Below, piece after piece: positions 2,191-41,354 of a stretch of DNA of 64,000 bases. Both the position numbers and the translations under genes were made by a program. Within the stretch, counting starts at the first letter, position 1, and the number at the start of each line of letters is the position of its first letter. Below the pieces are notes generated by a model. The model had not been told where the DNA came from and ran no database searches. It saw nothing but the letters and a program-made list of their open reading frames with translations. The stretch comes from Squalus acanthias (taxonomy: Eukaryota), in NCBI GenBank assembly GCA_030390025.1, contig JASTWF010000031.1, positions 4,712,001 to 4,776,000 of the forward strand. Direction: 5' to 3'.

Positions 2191-2548
2191 TTTTCTTCAG
2201 AAGAAAGGAAAATACAATTCCAGGCCACAGAATTTCCATACATTCTGTTAATGCTGCTCCGCAGACAATACGTTCAAACATGCCCTTGCATAGGATGTGA
2301 ATGGAGCTGTTTTTCCACCCAGATAGTTTTCTTTCTATCGCCTGGGCTGACCAGCCAGAATTGGCAAATTCATCCCGTGGCAAGCCTGAGGCCAGAGGTC
2401 AGTCAAGAATAGGATTTGAACTCTGGCCTCCCAGTTCTATCACTTTAGCACTGTAAATACTTACAGGCTCATTTTACTTAGGAGAGAAAAGACCTTCATC
2501 CCTTCTTGCCAAGATCCCAGAGGTGAACGAACAGTATTTGGGAAGCTA

Positions 2549-2713
2549 ATACAAAAAGAAAATACTGCAGATGTTGGAAATCTGAAATAAAAACAGAAAA
2601 TGCTGGAGACACTCAGCAGGTCAGGCAGCATCTGTGAAGAGAGAAACTTCTCTCTCTTCACAGATGCTGCCTGACCTGCTGAGTGGCTCCAGCATTTTCT
2701 GTTTTTATTTCAG
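2549..2713 (-). mobile_element. Short Penelope-like fold-back insertion (family A), no ribozyme retained
   Basis: Arms 2582-2644 and 2651-2713, 6-nt loop AACTTC, unpaired 33-nt tail 2549-2581, 17-nt TSD CAGTATTTGGGAAGCTA at 2532-2548 and 2711-2727. Penelope assignment rests on architecture and recalled similarity to shark repeats. Confidence 0.7.
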
Positions 2714-4164
2714 TATTTGGGAAGCTACCCAGTTTACCATTAGCCTACTTTTGAGAACATTCAAACTGAGGTCCCAGAAGTGAGAAGACAGGGCTTAGTA
2801 TGCCAGACAGTCAGAGAGAGGTGACCCTTATACCCTCTGTTTGGGCTGAATTCAAACTAAGGTTGCAGAGATGACCGTAGTGCTTTAACCCACTGTATTT
2901 CTGCCATGAGACAGAAGAAAAACTATCCTGAGAAGGAGAAAGAGCTTCATTTCCATCCCACTTTTAAGTGAGTGTAACTCTAAGTGTACAGTAAATGTTT
3001 GGACGTGGGGGGGGGGGGGGGGGGCGGGGGGGGAGGGGGGGATGTGCAGCAATGGCTGGTAACATTTTATTAGTCAGCATTGCAAAAACTCTAAGATTTT
3101 TTAAATGTTTCTGCTTTTGGTTGAAAGGTGTTGCTGCTGGGTTTCCAACATGCACTAGCTGTGAAAGATATGCCTCTTTCTCTGAGTTATTGACCAAACT
3201 TCTCTATTCTTTCCTTTTATTAGAATGAACTAACACTAAACCTGGCTGCTTCACAGAGTGGCAGACACATACATCAATCACCAGGTATGTCATAAAGATG
3301 GAAAATAACTCCTAACAACACATACATAAGTGTGATTAACGATTTGTGAGAAGACAGTTCTCTAATAATACAACGTCTGTGAATTTCTCGTGTTAAACTT
3401 CGCTGATTCGAAGATAAGTTTTGACCCTCTGTGTGATTTTTTAAAAATGAACAATTTGCAAACAGACCTGTAAAGGGGAGATCGCTCTGTTAGGTACTGC
3501 AGAATCAAAAAACCATAGAAGTTTACAGCATTCAGTCCATCATGTCTGTGCCAGCTCTTTACTGGCACAATCCAAAAGTAATCCCATTGCCCTGTATCCT
3601 CCTCTGCTTCAAGTGTCTATCCACTTTTACAATTCTTCCTTGATCTGATCTCTTAACCATTAAAGTCACACTAGCCTAAAAAGTGTTGTTGTGATATTAG
3701 TGGATGAATGCTGAATGTGTTTGTATGACAGTCCTCTGTCTGCCATTTTAGCGCAGGCATTGACCTCTTATTTGAAATGAGTTAGCATCTCCACTGAAAT
3801 AGTGGACAAAGATAATCAGATCAACAAGCTCAAGAGTCCACCTACTAATATCACAAGCAGTCATTTAAAGGCCTGTCGCCTTCATAAAAAGAGTTTTTTT
3901 TATTTGGGGAAACAGGAGTGCCAGAAGACCCATGTGTCACTTCATCATAATGGCCTTGTGCCCCAGCAGCGAGATATATTTCAACACAATTTGCCTCACT
4001 GCATCAAGACAGGAAATTGTTCACCAAACAATTTTCAATGAAGGTGCTGCCCCTTTAAAGTAAAAGTAATTGTTCTGCTACCCCTATAGTAATTGGGTTT
4101 ATTCACCAAAACAAAGGTTAATATTTCCTTCATAGGTAGGATGAAATGAACAGCACAAGTAGAA

Positions 4165-5503
4165 GGGAAAATTTTAACTCCTAGGCGAGAGGCCCAGCCG
4201 GGAGAGGCGAGAGGGAGGCCCAGCCGGGAGAGGCGAGAGGGAGGCCCAGCCGGGAGAGGCGAGAGGGAGGCCCAGCCGGGAGAGGTGGAGGGAGGCCCGG
4301 CCGGGAGAGGCGGGAGGGAGGCCCGGCCGGGAGAGGCGGGAGGGAGGCCCGGCCGGGAGAGGCGGGAGGGAGGCCCGGCCGGGAGAGGCCGGAGGGAAGC
4401 CCGGCTGGGAGAGGCGGGAGGGAGGCCCGGCCGGGAGAGGTGGGAGGGAGGCCCGGCCGAGAGAGGCGGGAGGGAGGCCCGGCCGGGAGAGGTGGGAGGG
4501 AGGCCCGGCCGGGAGAGGCGGGAGGGAGGCCCGGCCGAGAGAGGCGGGAGGGAGGCCCGGCCGGGAGAGGTGGAGGGAGGCCCGGCCGGGAGAGGCGGGA
4601 GGGAGGCCCGGCCAGGGGAGGTGTGAGGGAGGCCCGGCCAGGAGAGGCGGGAGGGAGGCCCGGCCGGGAGAGGCGGGAGGGAGGCCCGGCTGGGAGAGGT
4701 GAGAGGGAGGCCCGGCCGGGAGAGGCGGGAGGGAGGCCCGGCCGGGAGAGGTGGAGGGAGGCCCGGCCGGGAGAGGCCGGAGGGAGGCCCGGCCGGGAGA
4801 GGTGGAGGGAGGCCCAGCCGGGAGAGGTGGGAGGGAGGCCCGGCCGGGAGAGGCGGGAGGGAGGCCCGGCCAGGGGAGGTGGGAGGGAGGCCCGGCCGGG
4901 AGAGGCGGGAGGGAGGCCCGGCCGGGAGAGGTGGAGGGAGGCCCTGCCGGGAGAGGCGAGCAGGAGGCCTGGTCAATTCTAACAGCCAGGCTTGGTTTAC
5001 GTCCCGCCAGCCAGCTACTCACCCAAAAACGGGCGCAAAAAGGCAGCTGGCAGTTGAAGATCGAACGGGCACTCAGGTAATTCATGGGGTGGGCGGTTTT
5101 GGCGGGGTCTCTGGGGTGGGAAGGGGATACAATGCAGGGCAGTAGAGGCCCAGACTTTCCTCGTCAGGCCCGGAGGAGCACACTCCTGCTCTCCCTGGCC
5201 CCACAAAGGCAAGTTTCAAACTTACCTTGCAGGACCTCGTCTTGATTCAGGCCAGGTTTCACTGAGCAGGGCAGCCACGGTGGGAGCCCCACTCAGTCCA
5301 CAGTTCAAAAGTCATTGGGGGTCCTGTGTACGTCATAGGACCCCGATTTGCATAAACGTATGCAGAGTCCGCCTGGTTTAGGCGGGTGCCTTGGCCTCAG
5401 AGAAAATTGCGACAGGTTGGAAATGGGGCGGGAAATTGACCCATTCCATTCTAACCCCAGCTCCTCCTGGTTTATGCCGGGCTGAGGGAATGAAAATTCC
5501 CCC
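4165..5503. mobile_element. GC-rich non-autonomous DNA-transposon-like element containing an expanded minisatellite
   Basis: Ends GGGAAAATTTT...AAAATTCCCCC. Internal motifs (TGTACGTCATAGGACCCC..TTTGCAT; GGCCCCACAAA...CTTACCTT) are shared with the element at about 43980-44545. Confidence 0.55.
4183..4960. repeat. GC-rich minisatellite, about 30 copies of a 25-27 nt unit (GGGAGGCCCGGCCGGGAGAGGCGGGA)
   Basis: Direct reading; accounts for all the long low-complexity ORFs at 4035-5145. Confidence 0.97.
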
Positions 5504-6286
5504 TCTCGTCACTACACTGTGCCTGCTTTGAGATCGAGTTTGAGTGCACAGAACTTTACATATGCACAGCAGGCCACGGTAGTTTTACTGTTTATTCCAA
5601 TCATGTCTGTAGTGTGGGTGGCCTCGCTGGAGATGTATTCTGCACGTGCCTTCGACTGTGTGCTTATTGGGTACCAATTTAACCAACCTCAGCTGTCGCT
5701 CTATGGATTTGCAGCAGGCTCTCACAGAATGGAAAATTCTGAAAGTCAGACACACCAGATTCACTCACTTCACCAGTTCTGCCTGAACAAGGTTCCTCCT
5801 CGCACTACACATTTTTAACTCTAGCACAGGATTCCATTCTGCACTTAACGCTCTAAGTTAACAACACACGGAATATAAACCCTACATATATAGCAGGCTG
5901 GATGCTCACTTTTCCAAATGGGACTTCACATCTGTTTGCGACGACAGTTGAGGGTAGTGTGTTAGCACATTCCCAGAGTTCCACCTTTGAACTCTGTGCT
6001 TTGTATTTAAGTAGCTGGAAATGGCAGTATGGGCAGCAGAGTGTCATCATTCACTGATCACAACCTCTGCACAATCCCTCCGTCTGACACTGCAGAGCCA
6101 CTCACTCACTCTTCACCTCGCACCTGCTTGTTCTTCTATTGCCGCTCATCTTCAAACAGCTGCTTTCTTCTCCATTGCCACTTACCCCCTCACTCCTACC
6201 CCCCTCCCCCCCCACCCCCCCGCCAAAAACAAACTACCTACCACCACTCAGCCGCTTGACCCTGTTCTCCTTCAGCTGGGTAGGTA

Positions 6287-6675
6287 AGAACAATAAGAGA
6301 TAGGAGCAGGAGTAGGCCATTCGGCCCTTCGAGCCTGCTCCGCCATTCAATAAGATCATGGCTGATCTTCAACCTCAACTCCACTTTCCTGCATTATCCC
6401 CATATCCCTTGATTCCCTTAGTATCCAAAAATCTATCGATCTCTGTCTTGATCATACTCAACGATTGAGCATCCACAGCCCTCTGGGGTAGAGAATTCAG
6501 CCTTTGAGTGAAGAAATTTCTCCTCATCTCAGTCCTAAATGGCCGACCCCTTATTCTAAGACTGTGACCCCTAATTCTAGACTCCCCAGCCAGGGGAAAC
6601 ATCCTCCCAGCATCTACCCTGTCAAGCCCTGTAAGAATTTTATACGTTTCAATGAGATCACCTCTCGTTCTTCTA
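6287..6675 (-). mobile_element. CR1/HER1-type LINE 3' fragment
   Basis: ORF2 C-terminus (MFPLAGESRIRGHSLRIRG...RRNFFTQR) plus the 3' UTR motif GGGCCGAATGGCCTACTCCTGCTCCT on the minus strand. Confidence 0.9.
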
Positions 6676-7179
6676 AGCAGGTAGATGGGCAGTGCTGGAG
6701 CTGATTTCTATGCAATTGCAAAAAAAAAGCTCTCCACATGTTCAGTTGACAGGATGTATCTAAGTTTGTTTGGCAAAGTAAATAATTTAATGGAACTGGA
6801 GTCTTATCAACACCATCTACAGTCATTATTCTGAGTAACCACACAAAGTAACTAATGTGGGCAGGAGCTAGCCTCACCTTCAGCCCACGCTGACTTTCAT
6901 TTTTATTTTCTGATGGGTTTCATTTTATTTGATTTTGTTCCAGGTAGCCTTTCAGATACAATTGGAATAAAACTGCGAAATCAGATAGTAACCAAAGTTT
7001 AGAGTTAGAGAATCGATTTTCCGGGATACTGTAAATCTGGAGCAGCCTCGAATAAAACTGTCCACTTGCCAGTTCGTGGTACAAAACCACGATACATTGA
7101 CTTTGGCCGCACTCATTTACATCCTTTGCGGTGAGTATTTTTTTTTATAAAGGTATGTTCCCAGTACCATCTCAAATAT

Positions 7180-7617
7180 CAGCCTGTTTACCATAGTGGT
7201 AGCACTCGCCTCTGAGTCAGAAGGTCGTGGGTTCAATTCTCACTCCAGAGACTTTAGCAAAAAAAATCTAGGCTGACCTTCCAAGACAGTACTGAGGGAG
7301 TGCTGCACTGTCTTTTGGATGCGGTGCCGTCTTTCGGATGAGACATTAAATCGAGGCCCCGTCTGCCCTCTCAGGTGGATGTAAAATATCCCACAGCACT
7401 TTTTCAAAGAAGAGCAGGGGAGTTCTCCCCAGCGTCCTGGCCAACATTTATCCCTCAACCAACATCATTAAAACAGATTATCCGGTCATTATCTCATTGC
7501 TGTTTGTTGGAGCTTGCTGTGCGCAAATTGGCGTTTCCTACATTACAGCAGTGACTACACTTCAAAAGTACTTCACTGGATGTAAAGCGCTTTAGGATTT
7601 CCTGAGGTCATGAAAGG
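7180..7617 (+). mobile_element. tRNA-headed Deu-domain SINE (SacSINE1-like), cut by the assembly gap
   Basis: tRNA-like head with B box GGTTCAATT, central block GAGGCCCCGTCTGCCCTCTCAGGTGGA...CCTGGCCAACATTTATCCCTCAACC, L2-like tail. Homologous to copies at 11.3 and 30.1 kb. Confidence 0.8.
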
Positions 7618-7800
7618 NNNNNNNNNNNNNNNNNNNNNNNNNNNNNNNNNNNNNNNNNNNNNNNNNNNNNNNNNNNNNNNNNNNNNNNNNNNNNNNNNNN
7701 NNNNNNNNNNNNNNNNNNNNNNNNNNNNNNNNNNNNNNNNNNNNNNNNNNNNNNNNNNNNNNNNNNNNNNNNNNNNNNNNNNNNNNNNNNNNNNNNNNNN
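7618..7800. other. Assembly gap (183 N)
   Basis: Run of N. Confidence 1.
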
Positions 7801-8574
7801 TATTACCTATACCAAGGCAGAGCAGTGTTGCATGAGGTCAAGCAGGGCAATCAGATCCAAACTATTGGTGCTATTGGCTTTCAGCATTGTTGACTTGCTG
7901 AAAATAGCTCCGATGATATGAAAATATGCTCAGCTCATGATATTTAACTGCCCTGTAACCATGTTCAGACCTCAAATGTGTAAAGGGCCCTGATAAAGGG
8001 TGCATGTGCCTTTGGAGGTACTGCTTTACTCCAAGCTGAGAAGAAAGCACAAGTAGTAACAGCAATTGGATCTAATCAAAATATCGGAGAAGGAACCCTG
8101 AAATCGGATTTGTAGAATATGGCTCAAATGGTGCGACGTTTTAATTCCTGTCTCGATAGGAGTAGAGTGTAATGTAATCGCTGTTATGAGTTGCAAGGTA
8201 TGTGGCTTTCTGGCCTGTTTCATAATAAGACCACTGTCCTGTGCCAAAATACCCTGCCTGTTCTTTGAATTTCCATAACTGCACACTGTTTTTATTTTTG
8301 CTTTGGGGATAATATTTAAAACTTCTCTCCCCCAGTTAAAATGTAATCAATACAGGCTAGAAATTATTTTTGGCAGTATTAGCGGACAGTGCATCTGCAT
8401 GATATTCCTCTGTCCACCATCTTAAAGTATCTGTTGACCTATTTAAAACAAGCAGGTTCACATCTCTGTTAAAATAATGAACAGAGAAATGCCACATAAA
8501 TATCTTAATTGTTTGTCCACTCGGTTGGCAATAATTATTTCTAGCTTTTATCTTTTTCAAACCAAAGCACAAAA

Positions 8575-9630
8575 TCACAAGATACACAAAGATGAGGAAG
8601 GCCATTTGGCCTATTGAAGCTCATCTATCCAGAAAGACTCCCTATCATAGCATCCAACTGTTTCTTAAAAGATTCCAGGGTTTTCCACTTTACTGCCCAA
8701 CACAGAAGTCCATTCCATGTGTTGACCACTCTTTGCAGGAAAAGGAAATTCCTAAGTGAATCAAGGGATATGGGGATAGTGCAGCAAGGTGGAGTTGAGG
8801 TAGAAGATCAGCCATGATCTTATTGAATGGCGGAGCAGGTTTGAAGGGCTGAATGGCCTACTCCTGCTCCTATTTCTTATGTTCTTATAGAAACATAGAA
8901 ACATGGAGCAGAAGTAGGCCATTCGGCCCGTCGAGCCTGCTCCACCATTCAATACGATCATGGCTGATCATCCAAATCCAGTACCCTGTCCCTGCTTTCT
9001 CACACAGAATCCCCATTGAGCCTGCACCGACACATATCCCACCCTATCCCCGTAACCCCACGTATTTAATTCCCCCTAACATATCCCATCCTATCCCCAT
9101 AACCCCACATATTTAATCCCCCCCTAACACTAAGGGTCAATTTATCATAGCCAAATCAACCTAACCCACACATTTTTGGACTGTGGGAGGAAACCGGAGC
9201 ACCCGGAGGAAACCCACGCAGACACGGGGAGAATGTGCAAACTCCACACAGACAGTCACCCAAGGCCAGATTCGAACCCGGGTCCCTGGTGCTGTGAGGC
9301 ACCAGTGCTAACCACTATGCCACCATGTTGCTCTATGTTCCTAACTGGTTTGAATTTGTGTCCCCTTGTCCTAATGTCATGCTTTAGTTTGAACTATTTT
9401 TTTCCATACCATTTATTATCTTATATACCTTTAAGGTCACTTCCTTTAAAGTCTAAAATGCCCAAGTTTCTCCTGTCTTTCCTCATGACTCAGTCCTGTG
9501 ACACTGGAGATCAGTCTCCGGACTCTTCTCTGTATTGCCTCCAGCACTTAATTGTCTCCCTGTCTCGGTGACCAGAACTGTATGCAAATACACAAGGTGT
9601 GATTGGAGCAGAGCACTATACAGTTCCAGA
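8575..9630. mobile_element. Nested repeat cluster: old CR1-like fragment (-) interrupted by tail-to-tail CR1 3' ends (about 8760-8995) and an HE1-type SINE
   Basis: CR1 tail motifs in both orientations meet near 8885; degenerate CR1 ORF2-like sequence resumes at about 9335-9625. Confidence 0.65.
9110..9328 (-). mobile_element. HE1-type V-SINE of sharks and rays
   Basis: V-domain GGACTGTGGGAGGAAACCGGAGCACCCGGAGGAAACCCACGCAGACACGGGGAGAATGTGCAAACTCCACACAGAC and a tRNA head (B box GGTTCGAATC on the minus strand). Confidence 0.88.
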
Positions 9631-10879
9631 AAACTTTGTTGTTGTTTGGAGACAGATCGGGTCAGGCTAGGAGTACAGACAAGGAAAACATTCCACTTGG
9701 TCCTCTCTCTTTGGAGGATTTTATTGTGAGACTTTAATGTGTGCTCTTTTCCTCTCTCCCCCCCCAAACCCTTCAGATTTTGTTTCCTTTATTTCCTATT
9801 GGAGCTACTTGCTGTCAGGACAGTGAATGGTCCGATGATCCATATACAGCTCACTTCTCCATGACCACTGTTCTGTGAGCAGTTGACAAGAAGCTTTGTC
9901 AATTTTCATCTCCCTCTTAGGATCTGATCTATCAACCTGGTTAAGAAAACTCACTTGGAACAGTGGCAGAGAGATTCAAATAACAGGCAACCTACGAATT
10001 TTAATCAACATCCAGTTAATATGAAAGCAGGTGTTCCGTGTTAAGGACCACGTCAGAGGCCATTTATTTGATTTTCTTTGTTCCCATTTCCATGAAATTA
10101 GAAGCCACGTTACAATACTTTGTGATTTTTATGTTCATAATGTTACAAAAAAAAGGTTGAATGGGATGAATCTGGCAGCACTCTGCCTCCTCACAAAGGT
10201 GTGCCTCAGTGTGTTTTCTTTGGTTTATAGGAAAAGATTTTTCCTTTTTCTATTTTGGGTTTGTATTGCTCCACTAAAGGAATGCTGTGTGTTTGTTTTT
10301 TTTACGTAAAAAGGAATTGGTCTGATCTCCACCTTCTATTCTAATTGTTTTGACTGGAAGCGCACTAAAGTGGGTGTGTTTGTCGTTAAGTAAAAATGCA
10401 TGCGTGGGAGTATGTTACTGGCAGTATGAGAACAGCAGCATGGACAGGGCATGAGTCGTCAAGCAAGCATTCCATCACAAATATATCTCGAGATCAACAG
10501 TCGCACTGTCCCATTAAGTCTATTAATGCTGCTTAGCTTATCCCTTCAGGAAATTTTGAATTTTATAATTGTGAAGAGGTATTTGCATCATGGGTACTGA
10601 GCCTTCATAAGAGCCTGTACATGAAGACAGGCTAAAGGCGGGGATTATATAATAACTAACCACCAGTAGTCGTTAGGTCTCTTACATTACGACTACTTTT
10701 CAGCTTCGTTCGAAATATGCAGTGATGTGTTGCATGCACACTGATGTCGTCTGTGTCATTAAAGCATCACAGCACTTGCAAATGACATCATAAATATGCA
10801 GCACAAGTGGCAATGGCATGTAATTTGTCCAGCAATATGCAAAAACCAAGAATTTATTCTATCAGGTCCAAAATGATGG

Positions 10880-11111
10880 CAAATCCTCTTTAAGCTGCGC
10901 GCACTGCAGCTGTACAAGTTGGTTATAAAATAGTCTTAGGTCAGAAGCAATGTTCCCGCGAATTGTTTTTTGGGTGCGCGGCCCCTTTAACAGGCTGCGT
11001 GACTCATTCAAATTATCGCGTATGCGCGGTTTTTGCCTTTTAAAAGCCGGAGAGCGGCCTGCGCGGGACCTCCAGACCACTGCGCGGCCACGCAGCTTAA
11101 CGGGAGCATTG
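10880..11111. mobile_element. Possible hAT-like MITE
   Basis: CpG-rich patch bounded by imperfect inverted ends CAAATCCTCTTTAAGCTGCGCG / CACGCAGCTTAACGGGAGCATTG. No 8-bp TSD seen. Confidence 0.4.
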
Positions 11112-11305
11112 GTCAGGAGTGGTTTATTATTTGGGAGACTGCAGATTCCAAGTTGTATCCTTGGATTAGGAGGAGGTAAACAAGATGCTTCTACTTTGAG
11201 TTCTAGATTACCAAACTAAATGGAAGGAGCTGATTTTGTTGACATTCTCTGGTTGGATGAGACACCTGTTCATCTACACTGCCTGGGTCGTACACCCTCA
11301 GTTTA

Positions 11306-11766
11306 AAAAGAAAGAAAGACTTGCATTTATATAGCGCCTTTCATGACCACCGGACGTCCCAAAGCGCTTTACAGGGAATGAAGTACTTTTTGAAGTGTAG
11401 GCACTGTTGTAATGTAGGAAACACGGCAACCAATTTGCGCACAGCAAGCACCCACAAACAGCAATGTGATAATGACCAGATAATCTGTTTTTAGAGGGAT
11501 AAATATTGGCTAGAACACCGGGGATAACACCCCTGCTCTTCTTCGAAATAGAGCCATGAGATCTTTTATGTCCACCTGAGAGAGCAGATGGGGCCTCGGT
11601 TTAACATCTCATCCCAAAGACGGCATCTCCGACAGTGCAGCACACCCTCAGCACTGCAGGGGAGTGTCAGCCTAGATTTTTGTGCTCAAGTCTCTGGAGT
11701 GGGACTTGAACCCACAACCTTCTGACTCAGAGGAGAGAGTGCTACCCACTGAGCCACAGCTGACAC
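11306..11766 (-). mobile_element. Full-length Deu-domain SINE (SacSINE1-like)
   Basis: Reverse complement of the 7180 copy, with intact tail GGCGCTATATAAATGCAAGTCTTTCTTTC. Confidence 0.85.
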
Positions 11767-12076
11767 ACCTTATGTCTCAGTTTTGACATCACTTTTTATA
11801 CGATTTGTCATTTTCACAAAGACATTTATGAAAATACTTTGCTAATTTCTAGATGGAAATTCCAATTTAAAACAAAGGGAGACAATTTCCTTCTGTTGAT
11901 TCATTTAAATGAAAAATCCATGTCAGTACAAAAGAGAAAAAAAACCTCTTTCATTCCTAAAGTGTTTTGTTTTAATGTGCTAAAATGCAGCTTTCTGCAG
12001 TGTGCACAAATGACTATGCCTCGATATAACAGAAACAATCAATAATATGATGAGTTATTTTGTTTTGAGCTGCAAA

Positions 12077-12501
12077 ATCATAGAATCATAGAATGGTTAC
12101 AGCGCAGAAGGAGGCCATTCGGCCCGTCGAGCCCATGCCGGCTCTCTGCAAGAGCACTTCAGCTGGTCCCACTCCCTGGCCCTTTCCCCGTAGCCCTGTA
12201 AAAAAATTTCCTTCAGGTACTTATCCAATTCCCTTTTGAAAGCCACAATTGAATCTGCCTCCACCACCCTTTCAGGCAGTGCATTCCAGATCCTAACCAC
12301 ATGCTGACGAAAAAAGTTTCCCCTCATGTCGCCTTTGGTTCTTTTGCCAATCACCTTAAATCTGTGTCCTCTGGTTTTCGACCCTTCCGCCAATGGGAAC
12401 AGTTTCTCTCTATCTACTCTGTCTAGACCCCTCATGATTTTGAACACCTCTATCAAATCTCCTCTCAACCTTCTCTGCTCTAAGGAGAACAACCCCAGCT
12501 T
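12077..12501 (-). mobile_element. CR1-type LINE 3' fragment
   Basis: FSLEQRRLRGDLIEVFKIMRGLDRVDREKLFP...VVRIWNALP and an ATTCTATG tail repeat. Confidence 0.93.
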
Positions 12502-18560: not shown

Positions 18561-20319
18561 TGTGTTGGGCTAAACACATATCAAATCTACAACCGGGACC
18601 ATCATTTGAACTCATTTGGCTTCCCTGGACAATGTTAATTGGCTCTTAGCTCGGGCTGTAATCCTGGAAAACTCTACAGAGAAATACACCGAGCAAGACA
18701 AATCATTCCAAAGAGGGGCACCTCTTTCAGGCTGGTCATCCCAGCAGCACTGACACCAACTGTCTAACCTTCCAGAGAGGAGGTGGAATAGCAGTAAGAC
18801 AGTGTGGGAGCTCCAAAACAGAGGAGCACCTGACATATGGATAATAAAGGGAAATGGTTCCACCTGGTAGGGATATATTAATGCTGCTCTCCCAGGTGAG
18901 CGACACAGGGTGACCCACCCACCAACTCTCCCTCCCTCCGTCTGGTGGGGAAGTGCCTTGTGTCTATTATATTTCTACACCTAATGGTCTAGCTGAGATT
19001 GGGTCATGATCCTGTGGAAAGTTGCAGCACTCCAGGCCATGCTAGCTATGTCGCCAATCAAATGCCCACAACATTGCCGCCACGTGTCCCTGCTCCAGAC
19101 ACACTGCGGTTTTAACAAAATGATAAAACTTCTGAAGATCCAACGACAGTTGCTATTTGGTCCATTATTGGTAGAAATTTGCATTTTTTTTTTACTATAT
19201 TGCCTGACAAGGAGGCATTTGTGTTCCGTACCACTTGTATTCCAGTGAGCAGAACCTCTCCCCCCATGATAAAAAAAAAACACTGAACTAACTTTTGGTT
19301 CCCCAATCTAAAATAGAAGGGAGCTCAGTTCTGACACATGCCTGCATTTCCAGTGCTTAAGAGGATTAACTTCACCTAAAATAGGGATGAGGTAATATTT
19401 GTAAAGCAGCAACATGCTGTATATACTCATCAGTCAGAAAAAGTAGACAAAGGGGTTTTCTGATTCATATTGCCAAAATTTAACTGATATGCTAACAGTT
19501 ACACCCTTGCATTTCACAGTTTTCATACCTCTGCACCATTAGTGCTTTGGTTTTTATTTTAATTCAGGAAATTTTTCAGTTAAAACTCCGTTTTAAAGAA
19601 AACTCCAAACACAGATGCCCATCTTATAATTGAACACACGCAAAAGCCACAAGACCCAGCATAAACAGCCAGAGAAATATTTAGGAGGGAACAGACTCTT
19701 CTAGTGACTAACAGAGGCAGTCACAGATAGATTATTATTCACATGTTTGAAGTTGGCTTGCTTGCGCCATTTGGAAAGGGATCCAGTCACGCCAAGTCTT
19801 TGCCTTGGCTGTACTCTGTGCTGCTTAAACACTGCAGCTACTGTCTACTCCCCACAACGTTCCAAATGTCAACTTTTAAAAAAGAAACCCGCCCAAAGCC
19901 AAAGTGTCTGTGCTTCACTCAGAGATTTTTTTTTTTTTTTACCAGCCTTAACAAATATAGGGCAAGAAAAAAAAGAATCATTCCAACACTACAATAATTC
20001 ATATTGCTTAAGGTTATATTACACTTGTGATGAATTGGCTGCCTCTAAAGGCGCAAAGAAAATATCCATTTAAAGGGAAATAGGCTGGCTGGCATCCAGT
20101 TGGCAGAAGGATGTCAGCTGCTGAAGTCTGTGAGATTTGGACTGCCTTTAGTCAGAACAGTGGGAGAAATGTTCATTAAAGGCCTGATGTTGATTATGTG
20201 GAGGTAAAGTTTCCAGAAGTCCAGAGCTACACAGAAGGCAAAGGCAGTCGGAAGCATAATAGTCAGTTTTATAACGCACCGATTACATTCTGTCCTGTTG
20301 AAAGTAATGAAAGTCTGTG

Positions 20320-23612: not shown

Positions 23613-23614
<2 letters not shown>

Positions 23615-23639
23615 ATGTTAAAATGAGCATTGAACTATT

Positions 23640-24406
23640 GGCCCAGAATTTGCTGGAGTGGGGCATTGCACAGCATGTCCCATTACTTAGACTTCTTCCC
23701 CTCACCCTTCAGCCCCAAAAAATTTACGCTTCGCTTCAAATTGCTGGATGTGCGAGCTGATAACGGCACAGCGAAGGCAACGGGACATCTGGGACCTTAG
23801 TGACCGACGGGACCAACAATCTATCTCCTTAACCAATGAGATTTAAGGATTGAGAAAGAAACAGAGGAACGATGGAGAAGGAAATTGGGTGAATTAGGAG
23901 TCAAATTAGGTACAGAAAGAGAAATAGAGCGAAAGAAAAATTGGATTAAGAGAGAGAGATAGAAAAAAATGAAACAGAAAGGAAAAGTAAGAAAAACATT
24001 AAAAAATATTAAATTTTTAAAATCTCAAGATCAATTTACTAACTGCAGGACTGAGCCTCCACAGTTTCAATTGTTCCCTTTCTGGGCTGGAGACGTTGAG
24101 CGGCATTGCAGGAACATAAATCTCGTCATTAAAAAGGGTATTTACGCTGCTAAGTACCAACCAAACGCCGAGTTTAATGGACAATTAATGGACAAATGCA
24201 GCAATTTCTTGAAACTCGCGGGGAGGTTGAGGGCGAGCTGCTGTTGCCGCGAGGCTAACGTTGGAGCGGCGCAAATCATCCAGCAACTTGTGGCGATTTG
24301 CAGTGCACTGGGTATCTCTTCCTCGCCACAAATTGCTGGACGATTTACACACTAATAACGGTGTGCGCATTAAACTCACCGTTACTTTGCCAGAAATTTC
24401 TGGTCC
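23640..24406. mobile_element. Non-autonomous DNA transposon, PIF/Harbinger-like
   Basis: ATT|GGCCCAGAATTT...AAATTTCTGGTCC|ATT: short TIRs with a perfect 3-bp TSD; CpG-rich subterminal regions. Confidence 0.7.
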
Positions 24407-26110: not shown

Positions 26111-27436
26111 TGAAAGTAGTCCGGGCTCTTGTTGCAAATATAAACTGTTGCTTAATATTTGAAACGATACATGAAATGTGGAGATGGGGAGAGGTTTCTT
26201 TTCTTCCCTGCGGGCCTGGAAAGAGACTGTAAAATGTCGTTACTTTTGGCCACGCTTCTTCCCATTCTGACGACCCATTCCTCCTCCATCCTCCAACTGG
26301 TTCTAAAGCACAGCAGCAGAACACTTTTCCCCCAACCGGGCAGTTCGAATTCTATCACTGCATCTCCCTTGCTGCATTTGAGAGCACATTTCATTGAATT
26401 TCAGCCAAGCTATTAGATGGCGCTCGATGTCACAGTAAAGGCAGATAGACAGCCCTGCCCGGTGTTGCAATTTCATGGCACACCTCGGCTTGGCACACAG
26501 TCCCAGAAGCCTACCTGTGAACCAATCTATTTTCAGTCGTACAGATCAACCAGGCCTGGTACAAAAATACATTGGCATTCTTGCATGCAACTGAGGGATT
26601 TAGAATGTCTCTGATTACATCGAGAGTCTTTTGGATGCATCTTCAAACAGCACAAGCAAATGTATCAGCAATACTTCATTATATTGACCAAGCCGAGGTG
26701 TGCCATGAAAATGCAACACCAGGCAGGGCTGTCTATCTGCCTTTACTGTGACATTGAGCTCCATCTAATAGCTTGGCTGAAATTCAATGAAATCTGCTCT
26801 CAAATGCAGTTTTGCGAATCTGATATGTATTTGGAAAGTTTGGCTGCACCTATCGCTTCACCCTGTGCAAACACTGATAACTGGAAAAGCAAACTGGTGC
26901 AGCCACAGAGATAATAATTCCCAATCTCACTGTTATTGTTTATATATATATAAATATATATCAATAAAAACGATATCCAATATGATCACAACCAGTGCTT
27001 AGTCATTGGTACATTTACATGTGCTGTAAAAAGTCTGGTCTGATAAGATCTGGGACACATGAACATAATATAAATACTTGAGCCTAGGTCCTGTGACTGT
27101 CTTCTATTGTCTTTCACCTTGCTGAATGGTCATGTTGTATCTTTGATTGTGGTAATAACCCTCTTGGTTGAAGAAGGCGGTCTGGAACTGAATGGTTTCT
27201 GAAGTGGAAGTAAAGGGTGGAGAAGGGAAAAATCACATTTTACTCGCATTTCCTGCACCCCAACCCTCACCCCCAATCTCTCGCTGTACAAATATATGCC
27301 CGAGCTCCCCTGCTTGTTATGTAAGTGCTGTAAACTGTCAAATTAATAAAAGATCTATCACCATAGCCTTAAAGTCACTGCTGCCAGTCATGTTTACAGA
27401 TAAATAGTGGGGGAGATTTACCAGGCTAATCCTTTA

Positions 27437-27522: not shown

Positions 27523-27569
27523 TCTGGATGTCAGTAGCATTCATGCACTGAAATAAAATTAAAAATAAG

Positions 27570-33500: not shown

Positions 33501-33837
33501 TCTGATAAATTCAAATATGGACTAATTTAGAATACTTCACATTTGGATGTGCCCAGCCCTTTAAAAAAAATGGCAACCTGCAAGTGCACAATTTACTGGT
33601 ATGTTTTTCTCTCTCTAAATATGATTTTATTTCTTGCACCAGGATAGATATTAGCAGCTAATGGGAAATGGCTGTTTAAAAGGTAAGCAGTGTTTTTATT
33701 CGCGGGTGTTTTAATGCCATAAGTCCATTTTTAAAATTGTTGTTTGGTAGGTATGTACCTAGTTTTGTTGGGTTTTCAGCAGTTGTGATTTAGTTGGTTC
33801 TGCATTTACTTTAGGCTGTCCTTATTAAAACACTAAA

Positions 33838-34105
33838 GGGCTGGATTTTGTCTTGGGGTCGGGTTGGGGTCGTGTAATCCGCATTTCGTGTTTCCCCCCC
33901 GACTCCAGATTAATGTGGATGCCTGATGCAATTTTCACTTAATTGGGCAATTGAGTTGGAGCATGTGGGAACCCATGAACTAATTAGTGTTTTCAGTCTG
34001 AAAGCCGCCTCTGATGATGTCATCATTGCTGACTGGCTAGTCTCAGAGACTGTTGGTGAGAGAGGACCTGCCTGGCTTTTGATGTGAGTGTGGGGGGGAG
34101 GAGGG

Positions 34106-34137
<32 letters not shown>

Positions 34138-34563
34138 TTGCCAAGTAAGTCCTCCCAGGCAGTCTCTGAAGACATTCAATGCAGCAGCATCAGAGGCAAT
34201 GTTCACCTTCATCACATCTCCATTGTAATAGTGGACTTGCAGCCGATAGTCAGCTATCCACTTGTGCTCCCGCCAGGTTTCACTGGAGTGTTTCACACCA
34301 GGCGTGCTTCACATCAAAAGAGGGTTAAACTAGCTACAGCGTTTCAAAATGGCATTACAGAGCCAATTTAGAGCTTGTTAAGGGCTTTAATGGCCTCTCC
34401 CGCCTCTTGGAGGCGGGACGGAATCGGGAACCCCGCGACTGATTATGTCAAAATTGCGTGGAGGCGGGATGGAGTCGGGATAGGGTCGGAAACCCCAAAC
34501 CCGCAAATTTAACCCCCCACACGCCTCCAAACCCGACTCCATGGGTCATTCAAAATCCAGCCC
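33838..34563. mobile_element. Non-autonomous DNA transposon, PIF/Harbinger-like
   Basis: Perfect 13-bp TIRs GGGCTGGATTTTG / CAAAATCCAGCCC; flanks AAA and TAA. Confidence 0.75.
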
Positions 34564-36626
34564 TAACAATCTGATGCTGATAGCTGTCAAGTGCAAAGTG
34601 CAGTTGACAAGACTCACATTATAATATGGGCTGTGCCTCTCACTCTGTCCATTAGAAGAGAGCAGTACACACAGACGTATTTACATCTATGCACAGAGCT
34701 GCTGTACCCTCGTGGCTGTTCTATTTAATGACAGGAGAGTGTGGCTGGTAAAGTCCGCTTCCTTACAAAGAAAGACTTGCATTTATATAGCTCCTTACTA
34801 CATCTTATAAATGTCTCAAACCATCACGCAATGAATTACTATATAGTGATCTTTCTTATGTAGGCAGATGTGGCAGTCATCTTATTCACAGCAAGATTCC
34901 ACCAACAATAATGCCATGGCTAAAAGAAAAGAACAAACTAAACAATAATGAGACTCCATGGATGAATAAAGCCATAAGGGAACAATTGAGGGTAAGGAAA
35001 GCGGCATACATTAAGTGCACAGACAAGCAGGGGAGTGCATGATAAGAGAGAATACGAAAAGATTAGGAAAGAAGTCAAAAAAACAATTAGGGAGGCAAAG
35101 AGGAATGATGAAATTGAATTATCAAGGAACATAAAACAAAATAGTAAAATGTTTTATAGGCACATCAATAAAAAAAGGAAGGTTGGGATGGGAATAGGGC
35201 CATTAAGGGATAGTCAGGATAATACCACAGGTAACAATAGAGAGATGGCAGAAATATTAAATAATTATTTTGCTTCAGTATTTACCGGGGAGATAGAACA
35301 GGTGGACATAACATTGGATGATGAGATTAGTAATGAGATAAGTGTATTTAAAATTTAAAAAGGGGAGATATTAAATAAATTAATCAAACTCAAAGAGGAT
35401 AAAACCCCTGGTCTGGATGGATTGCATCCACGCATTTTAAAAGAATCTAGGGAAGAGATAGCAGAGGCATTACTACGCATATTTAATAATTCGTTAGAAA
35501 AAGGTATAGTGCCAGAGGACTGGCAGATAGCTAACGTAATACCGATATTTAAGAAGGGGGATAGAATATGTCCAGGGAATTATAGACCAGTCAGCTTAAC
35601 ATCGGTGGTAGGAAAAATAATGGAATCCCTACTAAAGGAGAAAATAGAAGAACATCTAGAAACCAAAAATATAATAATGAATAGTCAACATGGATTTCAA
35701 AAGGGAAAGTCTTGCTTGACCAACCTTATTGAATTTTTTGAAGAGGTAACAGAGAGAGTAGACAATGGTAATGCAGTAGATGTAATTTATCTGGGTTTTC
35801 AAAAGGCCTTCGATAAGGTACCTCATAATAGACTGATGAACAAGGTCAGAGAATGCAGAGTCAGGGGACAAGTAACAGAATGGATTGCTGGCTGGCATCA
35901 GGACAGAAAGCAGAGAGTAGGAGTAAAGGGTAACTATTCACAGTGGCAGAAGGTGGGCAGTGGTGTTCCACAAGGATCAGTGCTGGGACCACTGTTCACA
36001 ATTTACATTAACAATTTAGACTTAGGAATCAAAAACACAATTTCTAAATTTGCGGATGACACCAAATTGGGCGGGATAGTCAATACTGAGGAGGACTGCA
36101 ACAAGTTACAGGAGGACATTAATAAACTTGCAGAATGGGCATATAATTGGCAAATGAAGTTCAACACAGATGTATGTGAGGTATTACATTTTGGTAGCAA
36201 GAATAGGGAGATCACTTATCACTTGGAGGGTGTGAGTCTAGGTGGGGTAGAGGAACAAAGGGATCTAAGAGTACAAATACACAAATCATTAAAGTTGCGA
36301 CACAGGTTAGCAACGCCATAAAAAATGCAAACCAAGCACTAGGGTTTATTTCTAGAGGGATAGAACTGAAAAGTAGGGAAGTTATGCTAAATCTGTATCG
36401 AACCTTGGTTAGATCACACTTAGAGTACTGCGTACAGTTCTGGTCACCATGTTATAAAAAGGATATAGAGGCACTGGAGAGGGTGCAGAGAGGATTTACA
36501 AGGATGATACCAGAAATGTGAGGGTATACATATCAGGAAAGGATGAACAGGCTGAGTCTCTTTTCTCTTGAAAAAAAATGAGAAGTCGCACAACACCAGG
36601 TTATAGTCCAACAGATTTATTTAATT

Positions 36627-36664
36627 TTACAAGCTTTCGGAGCTGTCGCTCCTTCGTCAGGTAA
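36627..36664 (-). ncRNA. Minimal type-I hammerhead ribozyme, mirror copy (sense to runx3 pre-mRNA)
   Basis: Exact reverse complement of 37393-37430. Confidence 0.85.
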
Positions 36665-37392
36665 GTTAGCAATGAGAGAATCTCCCAGAATTCACAATTT
36701 AAACCCAGACAAAATCTATTCACATTATTCGCTACAACAAAGAGCACAGCCAAGACAATGAGATGTGTCCCAGGGGGTCCAACGTGTCAAACCACCTGCT
36801 GGCTGCATATCCTGTCAATTTGTGTTCTTGTGTTAGCCTTTTTAAAAAAAAAAAAACACCTGGAAAGACCGGCCATGATGTCAAGTCACGTTCTGTATCG
36901 TGACATGAACCCAATATCGCGATTGAGGCCATCCTCATGAGTGCGGAACTTGGCTATCAGTTTCTGCTCTATGATTTTGCGCTGTCGTGTATCTCGAAGG
37001 CCGCCTTGGAGAACGCTTACCCGCGTTACTGCGGGTAAGCGTTCTCCAAGGCGGCCTTCGAGATACACGACAGCGCAAAATCATAGAGCAGAAACTGATA
37101 GCCAAGTTCCGCACTCATGAGGATGGCCTCAATCGCGATATTGGGTTCATGTCACGATACAGAACGTGACTTGACATCATGGCCGGTCTTTCCAGGTGTT
37201 TTTTATTTTTTTTAAAAAGGCTAACACAAGAACACAAATTGACAGGATATGCAGCCAGCAGGTGGTTTGACACGTTGGACCCCCTGGGACACATCTCATT
37301 GTCTTGGCTGTGCTCTTTGTTGTAGCGAATAATGTGAATAGATTTTGTCTGGGTTTAAATTGTGAATTCTGGGAGATTCTCTCATTGCTAAC

Positions 37393-37430
37393 TTACCTGA
37401 CGAAGGAGCGACAGCTCCGAAAGCTTGTAA
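37393..37430 (+). ncRNA. Minimal type-I hammerhead ribozyme (Penelope-associated)
   Basis: UUAC-CUGACGA-A-GGAGC(GACA)GCUCC-GAAA-GCUU-GUAA: core CUGANGA and GAAA, 5-bp stem II, stem I UUAC/GUAA, palindromic AGCU in place of stem III. Predicted cut after 37426. Confidence 0.85.
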
Positions 37431-38294
37431 AATTAAATAAATCTGTTGGACTATAACCTGGTGTTGTGCGACTTCTCATTTTTGTCCACCCCAGTCCAAC
37501 GCCGGCATCTCCACATCATGACCTCTCTTGAAAAAAGGCTGTGGGGTGACCTAATAGAGGTCTTTAAAATTATGAAAAATTTTGATAGCGTGGATACAGA
37601 GAGAATGTTTCCACTTGTGGGGAAGAGCATAACTAAAGGCCATCAATATAAGATAGTCACCAAGAAATCCAATAGGGAATTCAGAAGAAACTTCTTTACC
37701 CAAAGAGTGGTGAGAATGTGGAACTCGCTACCACAGGGAGTGGTTGAAGCGAATAGTATGGATGCATTTAAGTGGAGGCTGGACAAGCATATGAGGGAAA
37801 AGGGAATAGAGGGTTATGCTGATAGATTTAGATGAGGAAAGACGGGAGGAGGCTCGAGTGGAGCATAAACGCCGGCATGGACTGGTTGGGCCGAATGGCC
37901 TGTTCCTGTGCTGTATATCCGATGTAATCCTATGTAAATAGTTAATCAGATTTTAGTACTGTTAATTTAAGGAGAAATATTAGCCAGGACAATAGGAAGA
38001 CTTCCTGCTCTTCTTCAAATAGACTCCATTCTAAGTTTATAAAGTGCCCAGAGATCCAACAGATTCGTTACAACGGTTTTTAGTTCTGGCTTCACATCAA
38101 TTTGGAGCTGTTTGTCATTTTACGAGAAGCCCAAGTAGTACGAGAGGCCTTTTGGAGGGGGTGTCACATCATTTTGCTTTAGTGTACTCAGGACGGTGTC
38201 AGATTGGGGCTGGATTCCTTAGCTATACTGCCAATTTCACATCAATGTACACCTTAAATTGTTTTGCATTACCATGAAAGTGGCAGTATAACTG

Positions 38295-38470
38295 GAGTTT
38301 AGTTTGATTAGTGCTTAAGAAATGGTTTAGTTGGTTTTCTGTTTTTGTAATGGTTAAGTTGGAGTTCTGATTGTTTAATTGATGGTTTAGTTGGGTTTCT
38401 GTTTGTGTTAATGATGGTGAGTTGAGGTTCTGTTTGTGTGGTTTAGTTGGTTTTGTGTTCATTTGTCTGA
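38295..38470. repeat. Degenerate G/T-rich tandem repeat, unit about 27-33 nt (ATGGTTTAGTTGGTTTTCTGTTTG)
   Basis: Five to six imperfect copies read directly. Confidence 0.7.
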
Positions 38471-39297
38471 TAGTTGGGTATGTGTCCATATTTTCTGATG
38501 TGCTGACACATGGTTGGGGTACAGGAATGCATCTATTTCCCCTGAAATCCTACTGCGGAAGATACATCTACATCTGTGTAGGTGATGTATGTGAGTCCCT
38601 GATGGTCTGTAATCAAATTCCATGGTCTCACCATTGGCTTCTTGTTGAAACGTCAAATTGACAGAATCCAAATTTTGCCCCCCCCCAGCCCCCACTTGTC
38701 ACTTTGAATATAAAGTTCAAATTTATCCAGATTCTCACCACTAATTACCACACATTTCACCATGGTCCTCATTAGAGAAAGAACTCACATTCCAAAAATG
38801 AATTAATTGAAAAATGAGCAGGTAACAATGGTGCATATTATGTATGAAAACATTGAACAAATTACCAGTGATTATTTTTTTTTACGTATCATGCATTATT
38901 GGAAAATAGATACAAAACCCAGATGTATGCAGCATGAGAACTTACTTTACAAAAATGTTAGGACTGTGTGTTATATGAGTATGCATTGTACAGCAAAAGT
39001 TATGGATGTGAATTAACTGCACTGCGTCACTCAGGCCTTCCGCCAAAAATATCAGCAAATAAACTTTTAAAGAAACTGTCAGAGCAGGTTTGGTGTTGGA
39101 GTGGGTTTGATGACAACTGTTTTACTGCCTTAAGCATAGTTTTTGATCAGGTGATCTTTTAAGTACAAAGGAGACATGCAGGTTTATTGGGCTCTGTATT
39201 TACATATGTGTAATATGTAATAAATCAGAGCAGACACATATGCAAATCATATATAAACACATTGCAAACATAAACGCATCATTGTTCAGTCCCAATT

Positions 39298-39700
39298 AGG
39301 ACATAGAAACAGGAATCGGCCATTCAGCCCCTCGAGCCTGTTCCGCCATTCAATTAGATCATGGCTGATCTGTATCTTAACTCCATCTACCCGCCTTGGT
39401 TCCGTAACCCTTAATACCCTTGCCTAACAAAAATCTATCAATCTCAGTTTTGAAATTTTCAATTGACCTAGCCTCGACAGCTTTTTGGGGGGCTAGAGTT
39501 CCAGATTTCCACTACCCTTTGTGTAAAGATGTGCTCTGACATCACCCCTGAATGGACCAGCTCTAATTTTAAGGTTGTGACCCCTTGTTCTGGACGCTTG
39601 GACCAGAGGAAATAGTTTATCTCTATTTACCTTATCAAATTCTTCAATCATCGTAAACAATTCTATTAGCTCACCCCTCAATCTTCTATATTCAAGGGAC
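39298..39700 (-). mobile_element. CR1-type LINE 3' fragment
   Basis: SLEYRRLRGELIELF...LFPL...RTRGHNLKIR plus CR1 tail. Confidence 0.88.
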
Positions 39701-40998
39701 AGTGATGGTCTGGCCATTCTTGAGTTACACCAGTTTGACTATATCCAACCTTTATTGTCAACTCAGCCAGCTGCTTAGATAATAGCTAACTGGTGCAGAA
39801 ATACCATGAAGCCCTCAAAGGGTTCATTTTCATTTTACTTTAATTTCTATTTTTATTTCTGGTTCATATCCAGTTTCATCAATGCTGCAACAGTGAGAGG
39901 TCACCAGGAAGTGCTTAATCTCCAAGACTAGGTTCAGGCCTATGAGTATGCAAAGCTTTGTGCAGCGTGCAACCGCTGACATTCTCTCTTGTACAACAGC
40001 TGAAAATAATATTTTAACACCAGAGAACAGGAGTTTACACAACTGGAGGATGCTTTCCTTTGTATACTGTCATCTCATTAACAGGCCACACTGTAATTGT
40101 GCAGTGTGTATTTAAGTGTGCAAAAGTTACTACAGTGCTCAAAGGGTTAAGTAGCTTTCTACCACAGCTTTGTACTTCAGTGTTAAAAAAAAACCTAGCA
40201 GGCGCGGTTTCTTAACGGAAAAACATAGATGATAATCATCTCCTCAAAGCGACGTGTTACATTCGGAGTAACATTTCTTTATATCTGTGTGTTACGTGCT
40301 TAACCCTTTTACTACGAGGTGTGATTGGCAACTTTCACAAATACTCTCACGCTTTGCTCTGTCACACGCTTGAGCAGTGTTTTACTTTTAAATATACAGT
40401 TTTAAGAATTAATAGAACTGGAGAAATATTTTTTTTTTAAATCACAAAATATTTCTTAGCCACTAAATAAACTAGAAGAAAAAGTTAACTTGTCCTTTTA
40501 CATTCTGCAGCTGCACTTCAGTGCTCTTCGAGTTCTTTTTAAAACTCTTCTGAAAGCTGAAGTTGAGCATTATCTTGCATCATATGCTTTACCAGCAAGG
40601 GGCCATTTATTTTTTCCTGTTTTAAAAATTGACACTTGCGTCAGTAAACGAGCTTGTGCAATTGACAGTACAGATGGATCTTTTAATTTTAATTCATGCC
40701 TTGTAGGATAGGGATTGGTCTTTGTGGGTCCCCACCAAATGACACAATGCAGCAAAAGCATCATTTTGCTCAGGCAATATAGTCATCACTGAGCCGAAGG
40801 TGGTCATTATTGACCCAGAACTGCTGTTGTCCTCAACATTTAAAGAAAATGATGTTATCCTTGTGTTTGCCAGTTCACAGTTCTCAGCACCAATACCTCT
40901 ATTTTGTTGTGATGCGGAGATGCTGGTGTTGGACTGGGGTGGACAAAAATGAGAAGTCGCACAACACCAGGTTATAGTCCAACAGATTTATTTAAAAT

Positions 40999-41034
40999 TA
41001 CAAGCTTTCGGAGCTGTTGCCCCTTCGTCAGGTA
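40999..41034 (-). ncRNA. Minimal hammerhead ribozyme, mirror copy (sense to runx3 pre-mRNA)
   Basis: Reverse complement of 41055-41090. Confidence 0.78.
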
Positions 41035-41054
41035 GAGTTACAATAGAGTAACTC

Positions 41055-41090
41055 TACCTGACGAAGGGGCAACAGCTCCGAAAGCTTGTA
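41055..41090 (+). ncRNA. Minimal hammerhead ribozyme (Penelope-associated)
   Basis: UAC-CUGACGA-A-GGGGC(AACA)GCUCC-GAAA-GCUU-GUA; stem II kept through a G-U pair, stem I only 3 bp. Confidence 0.78.
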
Positions 41091-41354
41091 ATTTTAAATA
41101 AACCTGTTGGACTATAACCTGGTGTTGTGCGACTTCTATTTTGTTGGGTTTAGCACAGTGTTTTAAACTTGTTGACTGCCACTCATTTAGAACTCCCTCA
41201 GTGGTCTAATATCAAGTAACCGAATGCAAGCAAACCTGGGTAGAGTATTCAGTTATTGGTTTGGTTGATGGGGAATAATTAAATGCATTATTAGTCTTGG
41301 AATGTTTCATGAAAGACTGGTGCAGCTCGCCACATGCACTAGATTGATTATAAT

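What the first reader, a model, noticed from the sequence alone, without database searches (positions are those of the whole stretch)
2532..41146. Three Penelope-like insertions share one geometry: 6-nt loop, 3-nt arm/TSD overlap, 33-42 nt tail
Seen: three separate insertions from two unrelated sequence families (2549-2713, 36574-37523, 40910-41137) have arms of 63, about 451 and 90 bp. Each has a 6-nt loop (AACTTC, GTTACT, AATAGA), an unpaired tail on one side only (33, 40, 42 nt) and a TSD (17, 13, 12 nt). In each, the free end of the inverted arm overlaps the TSD by 3 nt (CAG, AAA, TCT). Known: Penelope-like elements often carry inverted pseudo-LTRs and a short 3' extension. Inference: the constant loop and overlap suggest a stereotyped reaction in which truncated first-strand cDNA snaps back, self-primes a copy that stops short of the tail, and joins the target by 3-nt microhomology. 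I do not know of this rule being described, but n=3 and the AAA overlap sits in a homopolymer.
Basis: partly seen in the sequence, partly recalled or inferred. Interest (0 to 1): 0.75.

Follow-up and report, generated by a model that had tools for sequence, protein, structure and literature searches.

The report
Three hairpin-shaped Penelope retroelement insertions
Three short insertions of Penelope-like jumping genes in a shark-type genome are each laid down as a back-to-back double copy with a 6-base gap, a layout already described for this class, and the matching gap and 3-base overlap are likely common outcomes of a loose reaction rather than a fixed rule.

Summary
B and C belong to a Neptune-type Penelope-like family (GIY-YIG C-terminus, hammerhead core). 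A is assigned by architecture only. The layout, the 30-40 nt tail and self-priming are published.

The fixed rule is not supported. B's overlap is undetermined (3-5 nt, homopolymer). A and C pair over 7 and 8 nt with one gap. B's loop is 2 family plus 4 non-family bases, while C's is mostly family sequence. Three head-to-head junctions inferred from predicted proteins of relatives have spacers of about 480, 330 and 2 nt; none has 6.

What stands: microhomology at the inverted arm's outer end in 3 of 3 (chance about 1e-4 to 6e-4), little or none at the tail end, and short loops. Best model (inferred): both target strands prime at two internal sites that bracket the tail, and a cDNA snap-back bridges them. 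The genome-wide test could not be run.

The parts
2532..2548 (.). A: target-site duplication, tail-side copy (17 nt)
2549..2581 (-). A: unpaired 33-nt tail (3' end of the element; sense inferred to be the minus strand)
   Evidence: orientation by analogy with B
2582..2644 (-). A: direct arm, 63 bp
2645..2650 (.). A: 6-nt loop
2651..2713 (+). A: inverted arm; its last 3 nt are shared with the TSD (7-nt pairing with one gap)
2711..2727 (.). A: target-site duplication, arm-side copy
36564..36576 (.). B: target-site duplication, arm-side copy (13 nt; ends in an A-run, so the overlap is 3-5 nt)
36574..37024 (-). B: inverted arm, 451 bp
37025..37030 (.). B: 6-nt loop; the last 2 nt match the family, the first 4 do not
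   Evidence: table 7 (26 and 20 contigs at 37029 in X1 and X5)
37031..37483 (+). B: direct arm, 453 bp
37029..37166 (+). B: C-terminal 46 codons of a GIY-YIG endonuclease, 91% identical to P0002 (RT + Cys-rich linker + GIY-YIG)
37397..37422 (+). B: hammerhead-like core (CUGANGA, stem II, GAAA); mirror copy at 36635-36660 on the minus strand
   Evidence: motif scan; no Rfam hammerhead match
37473..37483 (+). Predicted 11-nt single-stranded RNA loop that holds the outer arm ends of both B (37483) and C (37476 equivalent)
   Evidence: prediction only, whole-segment z-score -0.69
37484..37523 (+). B: unpaired 40-nt tail
37524..37536 (.). B: target-site duplication, tail-side copy
36400..37720 (+). 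Host LINE remnant interrupted by B; its reading frame continues across the reconstructed empty site
   Evidence: CR1/L2-type label is recalled, from no call
40898..40909 (.). C: target-site duplication, tail-side copy (12 nt)
40910..40951 (-). C: unpaired 42-nt tail
40952..41041 (-). C: direct arm, 90 bp, with hammerhead-like core at 41006-41031
41042..41047 (.). C: 6-nt loop; 3 nt certainly family-derived, 5 of 6 if one inserted base is allowed
41048..41137 (+). C: inverted arm; 3 nt shared with the TSD (8-nt pairing with one gap)
41135..41146 (.). C: target-site duplication, arm-side copy

Best explanation
These are three 5'-truncated insertions with the layout TSD, inverted arm, short loop, direct arm, tail, TSD, of which B and C are Penelope-like (Neptune-type) and A is likely so, and each was likely made by priming from both cut target strands, with the two cDNAs likely joined through a snap-back of the first. 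Shown: the anatomy, the family of B and C, microhomology at the arm-side junction, and recurring family ends near 37476-37483 and 37517-37523. Inferred steps: (1) the GIY-YIG domain nicks both strands 12-17 nt apart, leaving 3' overhangs; (2) one overhang primes RT at the tail end with little or no pairing; (3) the other anneals over 3-8 nt, imperfectly, to the U-rich site 33-42 nt upstream and is extended, which fixes the outer end of the inverted arm; (4) the truncated first cDNA folds back on a 1-2 bp closure, sometimes with added bases, and is copied until it meets the second cDNA, giving equal arms and a short loop. Loops of a few nt and overlaps of 2-5 nt would be common values, not constants. 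Without step 4 the two cDNAs would join directly and give asymmetric inversions.
For: Arm-side overlap of 3 nt or more in 3 of 3, chance 1e-4 to 6e-4; extended pairing of 7 nt (A, P=0.031) and 8 nt (C, P=0.014) given an exact 3. Tail-side junction: 0 nt in C (alignment), 0-1 nt in B (inferred from the family continuation in proteins). PMC11167929 (parts 1-2 of the text read): both strands are cut and extended in vitro, two RT start sites bracket the tail, and genomic ends fall on them. PMC8557442 (passages): the tail occurs at either end. PMC2912911 (passages): about 70% of twin-primed L1 5' junctions have 2-5 bp. Family ends recur: loose ends behind 37476 in 158 contigs (X22) and 27 (X19), behind 37520 in 25 (X19), and another copy ends at 37483 in both X1 and X5. 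The B and C arm ends lie in a predicted 11-nt RNA loop. The family-derived loop bases continue the tail-bearing arm in 2 of 2 testable cases. cDNA snap-back before 5' joining is seen with R2 (PMC11371274, passages). Asymmetric head-to-head junctions occur in P0009 and P0019.
Against: No sequence feature here separates this hybrid from a pure snap-back that stops or is nicked at the tail boundary. PMC11167929 reports priming without homology, which does not predict the arm-side pairing. In A the arm end falls in a predicted stem, not a loop, and the B/C fold is no more stable than shuffles (z -0.69 and -0.36). The loose ends at 37476 partly reflect subfamily sequence differences at 37477-37480 (table 3). 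The 2-nt spacer inferred for P0023 is too short for a comfortable snap-back. The protein-derived junctions are single short contigs and could be misassemblies. n=3.
Confidence: 0.45

Rival explanations
1. Pure snap-back: the first cDNA folds back, is copied towards its origin, stops or is nicked by the endonuclease at the tail boundary, and is joined to the target overhang by microhomology.
For: Equal arms and short loops in 3 of 3; loop bases belong to the direct arm in B and C; self-priming proposed in PMC3846280; tail ascribed to EN-mediated resolution in PMC8557442; ATT, the cut motif preferred in vitro in PMC11167929, lies at the arm/tail boundary in both families (printout); R2 snap-backs.
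Against: It needs a separate reason why copying ends where RT is known to start (PMC11167929). Asymmetric junctions with a tail on the inverted piece (P0009) are simpler with two primed cDNAs.
Confidence: 0.3
2. Twin priming alone: two RT molecules copy one RNA to the same break and the two cDNA ends are end-joined, with no hairpin intermediate.
For: Both strands are extended in vitro and a dimer is predicted (PMC11167929); the 2-nt spacer inferred for P0023; non-family bases in B's loop.
Against: It needs both cDNAs to end within about 6 nt in 3 of 3 cases at unrelated positions (451 and 90 nt from the arm end in one family).
Confidence: 0.12
3. A fixed geometry: the enzyme measures a 6-nt loop and a 3-nt overlap in every symmetric insertion.
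For: 6, 6, 6 and exact 3, 3, 3 across two families; P(three equal loops) 0.001-0.04 depending on the null.
Against: B's loop is mostly non-family sequence and C's mostly family sequence; overlaps are 3-5, 7 and 8 on a less strict reading; 0 of 3 outside junctions have 6 nt; the rotifer Pen2a junction is described with a 15-bp overlap and a 37-bp shortfall (PMC3846280).
Confidence: 0.08
4. Assembly or library fold-back artefact.
For: No contig across any centre was listed.
Against: Each palindrome sits between a perfect 12-17 nt TSD; the arms differ by 1 substitution (A, C) or a 2-nt indel (B); the host LINE frame continues across B's empty site; five runs of two samples hold 79-87% of sampled words of 36900-41300.
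Confidence: 0.03

Closest known systems
Neptune-clade Penelope-like elements (PLEs with a Cys-rich RT-EN linker; definition read in PMC3846280)
   Same: B's 46 residues are 91% identical to P0002, which has an RT domain, a Cys-rich stretch and a GIY-YIG-type motif; hammerhead-like core; 5' truncation; TSD.
   Different: Only 3' remnants are present in the window; no tree was built; A has no coding or hammerhead remnant.
Pen2a_Av and related Penelope copies of Adineta vaga (PMC3846280, parts 1-4 of 5 read)
   Same: [quoted passage not shown]
   Different: That paper argues for an antisense template, gives no loop-length table, and its junctions (15-bp overlap; 18- and 38-bp palindromes) are not described as a 6-nt loop.
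PAc, Poseidon-type PLE of Anolis carolinensis (PMC11167929, parts 1-2 of 4 read; two supplementary PDFs gave almost no text)
   Same: 30-40 bp tail between two RT start sites; both target strands cut and extended; start in a stem-loop; hammerhead in the pLTR.
   Different: A different clade; priming reported as non-homologous; the parts read do not address how inverted arms or their centre form.
5'-inverted L1 made by twin priming (PMC2912911, passages)
   Same: TSD-flanked inversion with microhomology at the 5' junction, 2-5 bp in about 70%.
   Different: In L1 the inverted piece is a separate 5' segment of the RNA. Here it duplicates the direct arm and starts at a recurring site.
cDNA snap-back 5' junctions of R2-mediated insertions (PMC11371274, passages)
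   Same: The cDNA 3' end primes copying of itself before joining the upstream target.
   Different: R2 is site-specific and has no tail; the passages read report no fixed stop site or loop length.

Membership tests
EN+ Penelope-like elements (B, C) | C-terminal GIY-YIG endonuclease joined to a PLE-type RT | tested here: met
   B 37029-37166 matches the C-terminus of P0002 (91%) and P0004 (82%); Pfam RVT_1 in P0002 and GIY-YIG in P0004. The 46-aa piece alone has no Pfam hit. C is linked to B by DNA (93%).
EN+ Penelope-like elements (B, C) | Hammerhead motif in the pLTR | tested here: inconclusive
   CUGANGA, 5-bp stem II and GAAA in all four arms; no Rfam hammerhead model matched at E<=1; cleavage untested.
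EN+ Penelope-like elements (A, B, C) | Inverted 5'-truncated copy, 30-40 nt tail at one end, TSD | tested here: met
   tails of 33, 40 and 42 nt
EN+ Penelope-like elements (A) | Link to a PLE ORF or hammerhead | tested here: inconclusive
   The remnant is too short; no protein homologue and no usable DNA hit in the collections. The assignment rests on architecture and recall.
Neptune clade | [quoted passage not shown] | tested here: met
   Read by eye in P0002, the closest long relative; this region is not in the window.
Neptune clade | RT phylogeny | not tested
   No tree was built.
Proposed 6-nt loop / 3-nt overlap rule | Mode at 6 and 3 across genomic copies | not testable with these tools
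   No genome held; one search listed no strand-change joint; indirect sample 0 of 3 at 6 nt.
MITE / TIR DNA transposon | Terminal inverted repeats at both ends and a short fixed TSD | tested here: not met
   One end carries an unpaired 33-42 nt tail; TSDs are 12-17 nt and variable.

The most novel reading that the evidence does not exclude
Symmetric Penelope-like insertions in this genome have a sharp loop mode near 6 nt across unrelated families, set by the RT active site during cDNA snap-back, and the second target strand primes by imperfect 3-8 nt pairing in an exposed U-rich RNA loop. Together these would be a sequence-level signature of the unsolved second half of PLE integration, readable from many genomic copies.
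Probability: 0.2. Interest if true: 0.6.

Novelty: new member of a known kind. Interest (0 to 1): 0.3.

Why it matters
How Penelope-like elements form their inverted ends is still open: PMC11167929 leaves the steps after first priming unvalidated, and PMC8557442 calls for this work. Young hairpin copies in a high-copy shark family allow a cheap genome-wide test: loop length, which arm owns the loop, and pairing at each junction separate snap-back, twin priming and the hybrid. The three copies here point to that test but do not settle it, and the architecture itself is known.

Tried and rejected
Whole-genome census: no genome held. DNA patterns of both families: 0 hits in metagenome and viral contigs and 1 hit in genome contigs, a bacterial assembly, taken as chance and not followed up; P0002 found no relative in viral contigs. 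Read laying on B's direct arm: 15232, 11778, 2475 and 8182 contigs laid, but only 2 joints passed the 1% floor, neither a strand change. Table 5c gave 10 rows (8 distinct joints) with no strand stated; if read as inversion centres their spacers would be about 21-410 nt, but they may be tandem joints, so they are not used. 24 of 614 loose ends and 32 of 38046 pieces were shown. Summed depth was not used as copy number. Protein searches with translations across A's centre and B's antisense arm (one unrelated repeat protein) found nothing useful. Rfam returned only miRNA-precursor models matching the hairpin shape, all below their gathering scores. Other inverted pairs in the window (8803-8972, 26372-26809, 44810-44956, 52805-53907) have no flanking repeat above 7 nt and no similarity to A, B or C, so they were excluded. 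Weak A-like hits at 19403 and 28615 were judged chance. Seven literature searches and the passages read showed no table of PLE loop length or arm/TSD overlap; subscription papers such as Evgen'ev and Arkhipova 2005 and Arkhipova 2006 were not seen, and the supplementary figures of PMC11167929 could not be read as text.
Full report
Observation. An exhaustive palindrome scan found 8 rows at score 18 or more in the window, of which three are near-perfect: 2582-2644/2651-2713, the centre at 37024/37031 and 40952-41041/41048-41137, each with a 6-nt loop. Gapped alignment gives arms of 63, 451/453 and 90 bp, with one substitution in A, one in C and a 2-nt homopolymer indel in B. TSDs of 17, 13 and 12 nt, tails of 33, 40 and 42 nt and exact overlaps of 3 nt are as reported. 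A shares no sequence with B or C, and no other copy of either family lies in the window.

Identity. B's direct arm encodes 46 residues that match 14 of 19 candidate proteins, among them P0002 (643 aa, 91%), named from a shark. P0002 carries Pfam RVT_1, and the relative P0004 carries GIY-YIG. A Cys-rich stretch between the two domains fits the Neptune definition in PMC3846280. A hammerhead-like core lies in all four arms of B and C, though Rfam matched no hammerhead. The sense strand therefore reads TSD, inverted arm, loop, direct arm, tail, TSD, with the tail at the 3' end. A has the same layout but no testable coding or ribozyme remnant. B interrupts a LINE whose frame continues across the reconstructed empty site, which argues against an artefact, as do the TSDs. 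No contig across a centre was listed, so read-level proof is missing.

The overlap. An overlap of 3 nt or more at all three arm-side junctions is unlikely by chance (1e-4 to 6e-4), so microhomology there is real. Its length is not constant. With one gap the target end pairs over 7 nt in A and 8 nt in C, more than expected given an exact 3 (P=0.031 and 0.014; B 4 nt, P=0.67). In B the overlap lies in an A-run, and the empty site lacks 3 nt against 3 of 4 aligned paralogues, so 3-5 nt are all possible. B and C, one family, end their inverted arms 7 nt apart and their tails 5 nt apart. Both arm ends fall in a predicted 11-nt U-rich RNA loop at 37473-37483, but the fold is no stronger than shuffles and A's end lies in a stem. 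At the tail-side junction C shows no overlap and B 0-1 nt (inferred). For 5'-inverted L1, about 70% of the equivalent junctions have 2-5 bp (PMC2912911, passages), so 3 nt is an ordinary value.

The loop. Three equal loops have a chance of 0.04 if hairpin loops fall evenly in 4-8 nt, 0.016 for 3-10 and 0.001 for 0-30. Contigs from runs X1 and X5 give the family sequence upstream of B's centre (26 and 20 contigs, agreement 0.74): only the last 2 loop bases continue it, and 4 do not read through as family sequence. C's loop matches the family at 3 bases, or 5 of 6 with one inserted base, on a weaker consensus (16 contigs, agreement 0.59). The same length was thus reached in different ways. In both, the family-derived bases continue the tail-bearing arm, as a snap-back of the first cDNA requires; A could not be tested.

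Outside evidence. Of 39 proteins compared with B in six frames, 14 came from ENA or JGI contigs, assumed unspliced. Three of the 14 read antisense and then sense through a head-to-head junction: P0009 (spacer about 480 nt in B coordinates), P0019 (about 330 nt) and P0023 (2 nt by back-translation). None has 6 nt. This sample is tiny, comes from related subfamilies and short contigs, and is biased against long symmetric palindromes, so it shows that the geometry is not universal but does not give the distribution. One search shows recurring family ends: loose ends behind 37476 in 158 contigs of X22 and 27 of X19, behind 37520 in 25 of X19, and a second copy ending at 37483 in X1 and X5.

Mechanism. 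PMC3846280 (parts 1-4 read) describes inverted pLTRs, a 31-bp tail and palindromes at the inverted junction, and interprets them as self-priming. PMC8557442 (passages) ascribes the tail, found at either end, to endonuclease resolution. PMC11167929 (parts 1-2 read) shows both strands cut and extended and two RT start sites bracketing the tail. R2 cDNAs snap back before 5' joining (PMC11371274, passages), and small-hairpin inverted duplications with 2-bp homology occur at L1 breaks (10.1101/2024.12.14.628481, passages). I favour a hybrid (0.45): both overhangs prime at the two sites, the second by imperfect pairing, and a snap-back of the first cDNA bridges to the second. Pure snap-back with a stop or nick at the tail boundary remains close (0.3). 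All mechanistic steps are inferred.

Verdict. The catch is accurate, but the architecture and the self-priming idea are in print. Seven searches showed no published table of loop or overlap lengths for PLEs, so the question is open, but the fixed 6/3 rule is not supported by what could be tested. Earlier notes on this genome report similar hairpin copies without lengths; they are unchecked leads.

Noticed in passing
window 26372-26493 / 26688-26809: 122-nt inverted repeat, 96% complementary, 194-nt spacer, no flanking direct repeat above 6 nt; may be a local inverted duplication.
   Followed up: partly
window 52805-52864 / 53848-53907: 60-nt inverted repeat, 95% complementary, 983 nt apart, no clear TSD.
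   Followed up: partly
window 8803-8972: Two repeat ends joined in opposite orientation, about 84% alike, 8-nt gap; looks like two LINE 3' ends (label recalled), not a PLE hairpin.
   Followed up: partly
window 44810-44956, 46006-46064, 46574-46659, 24273-24346: Degenerate GC-rich imperfect palindromes, 75-79% where aligned.
   Followed up: no
window 4001-6000: GC 0.61 with strong skews and long open frames on both strands, probably a simple or tandem repeat.
   Followed up: no
window 7618-7800: Assembly gap of 183 N.
   Followed up: no
window 37025-37039: Part of B's loop is complementary to bases 37035-37038 of the direct arm, as a templated insertion or an aborted first snap-back would leave; not proven.
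   Followed up: partly
P0001, P0011, P0013, P0034: Shark gene models named XRCC5, FAM210B, FAM204A and a divergent kinase end in or contain this element's coding sequence; probably annotation chimeras or exonised copies.
   Followed up: no
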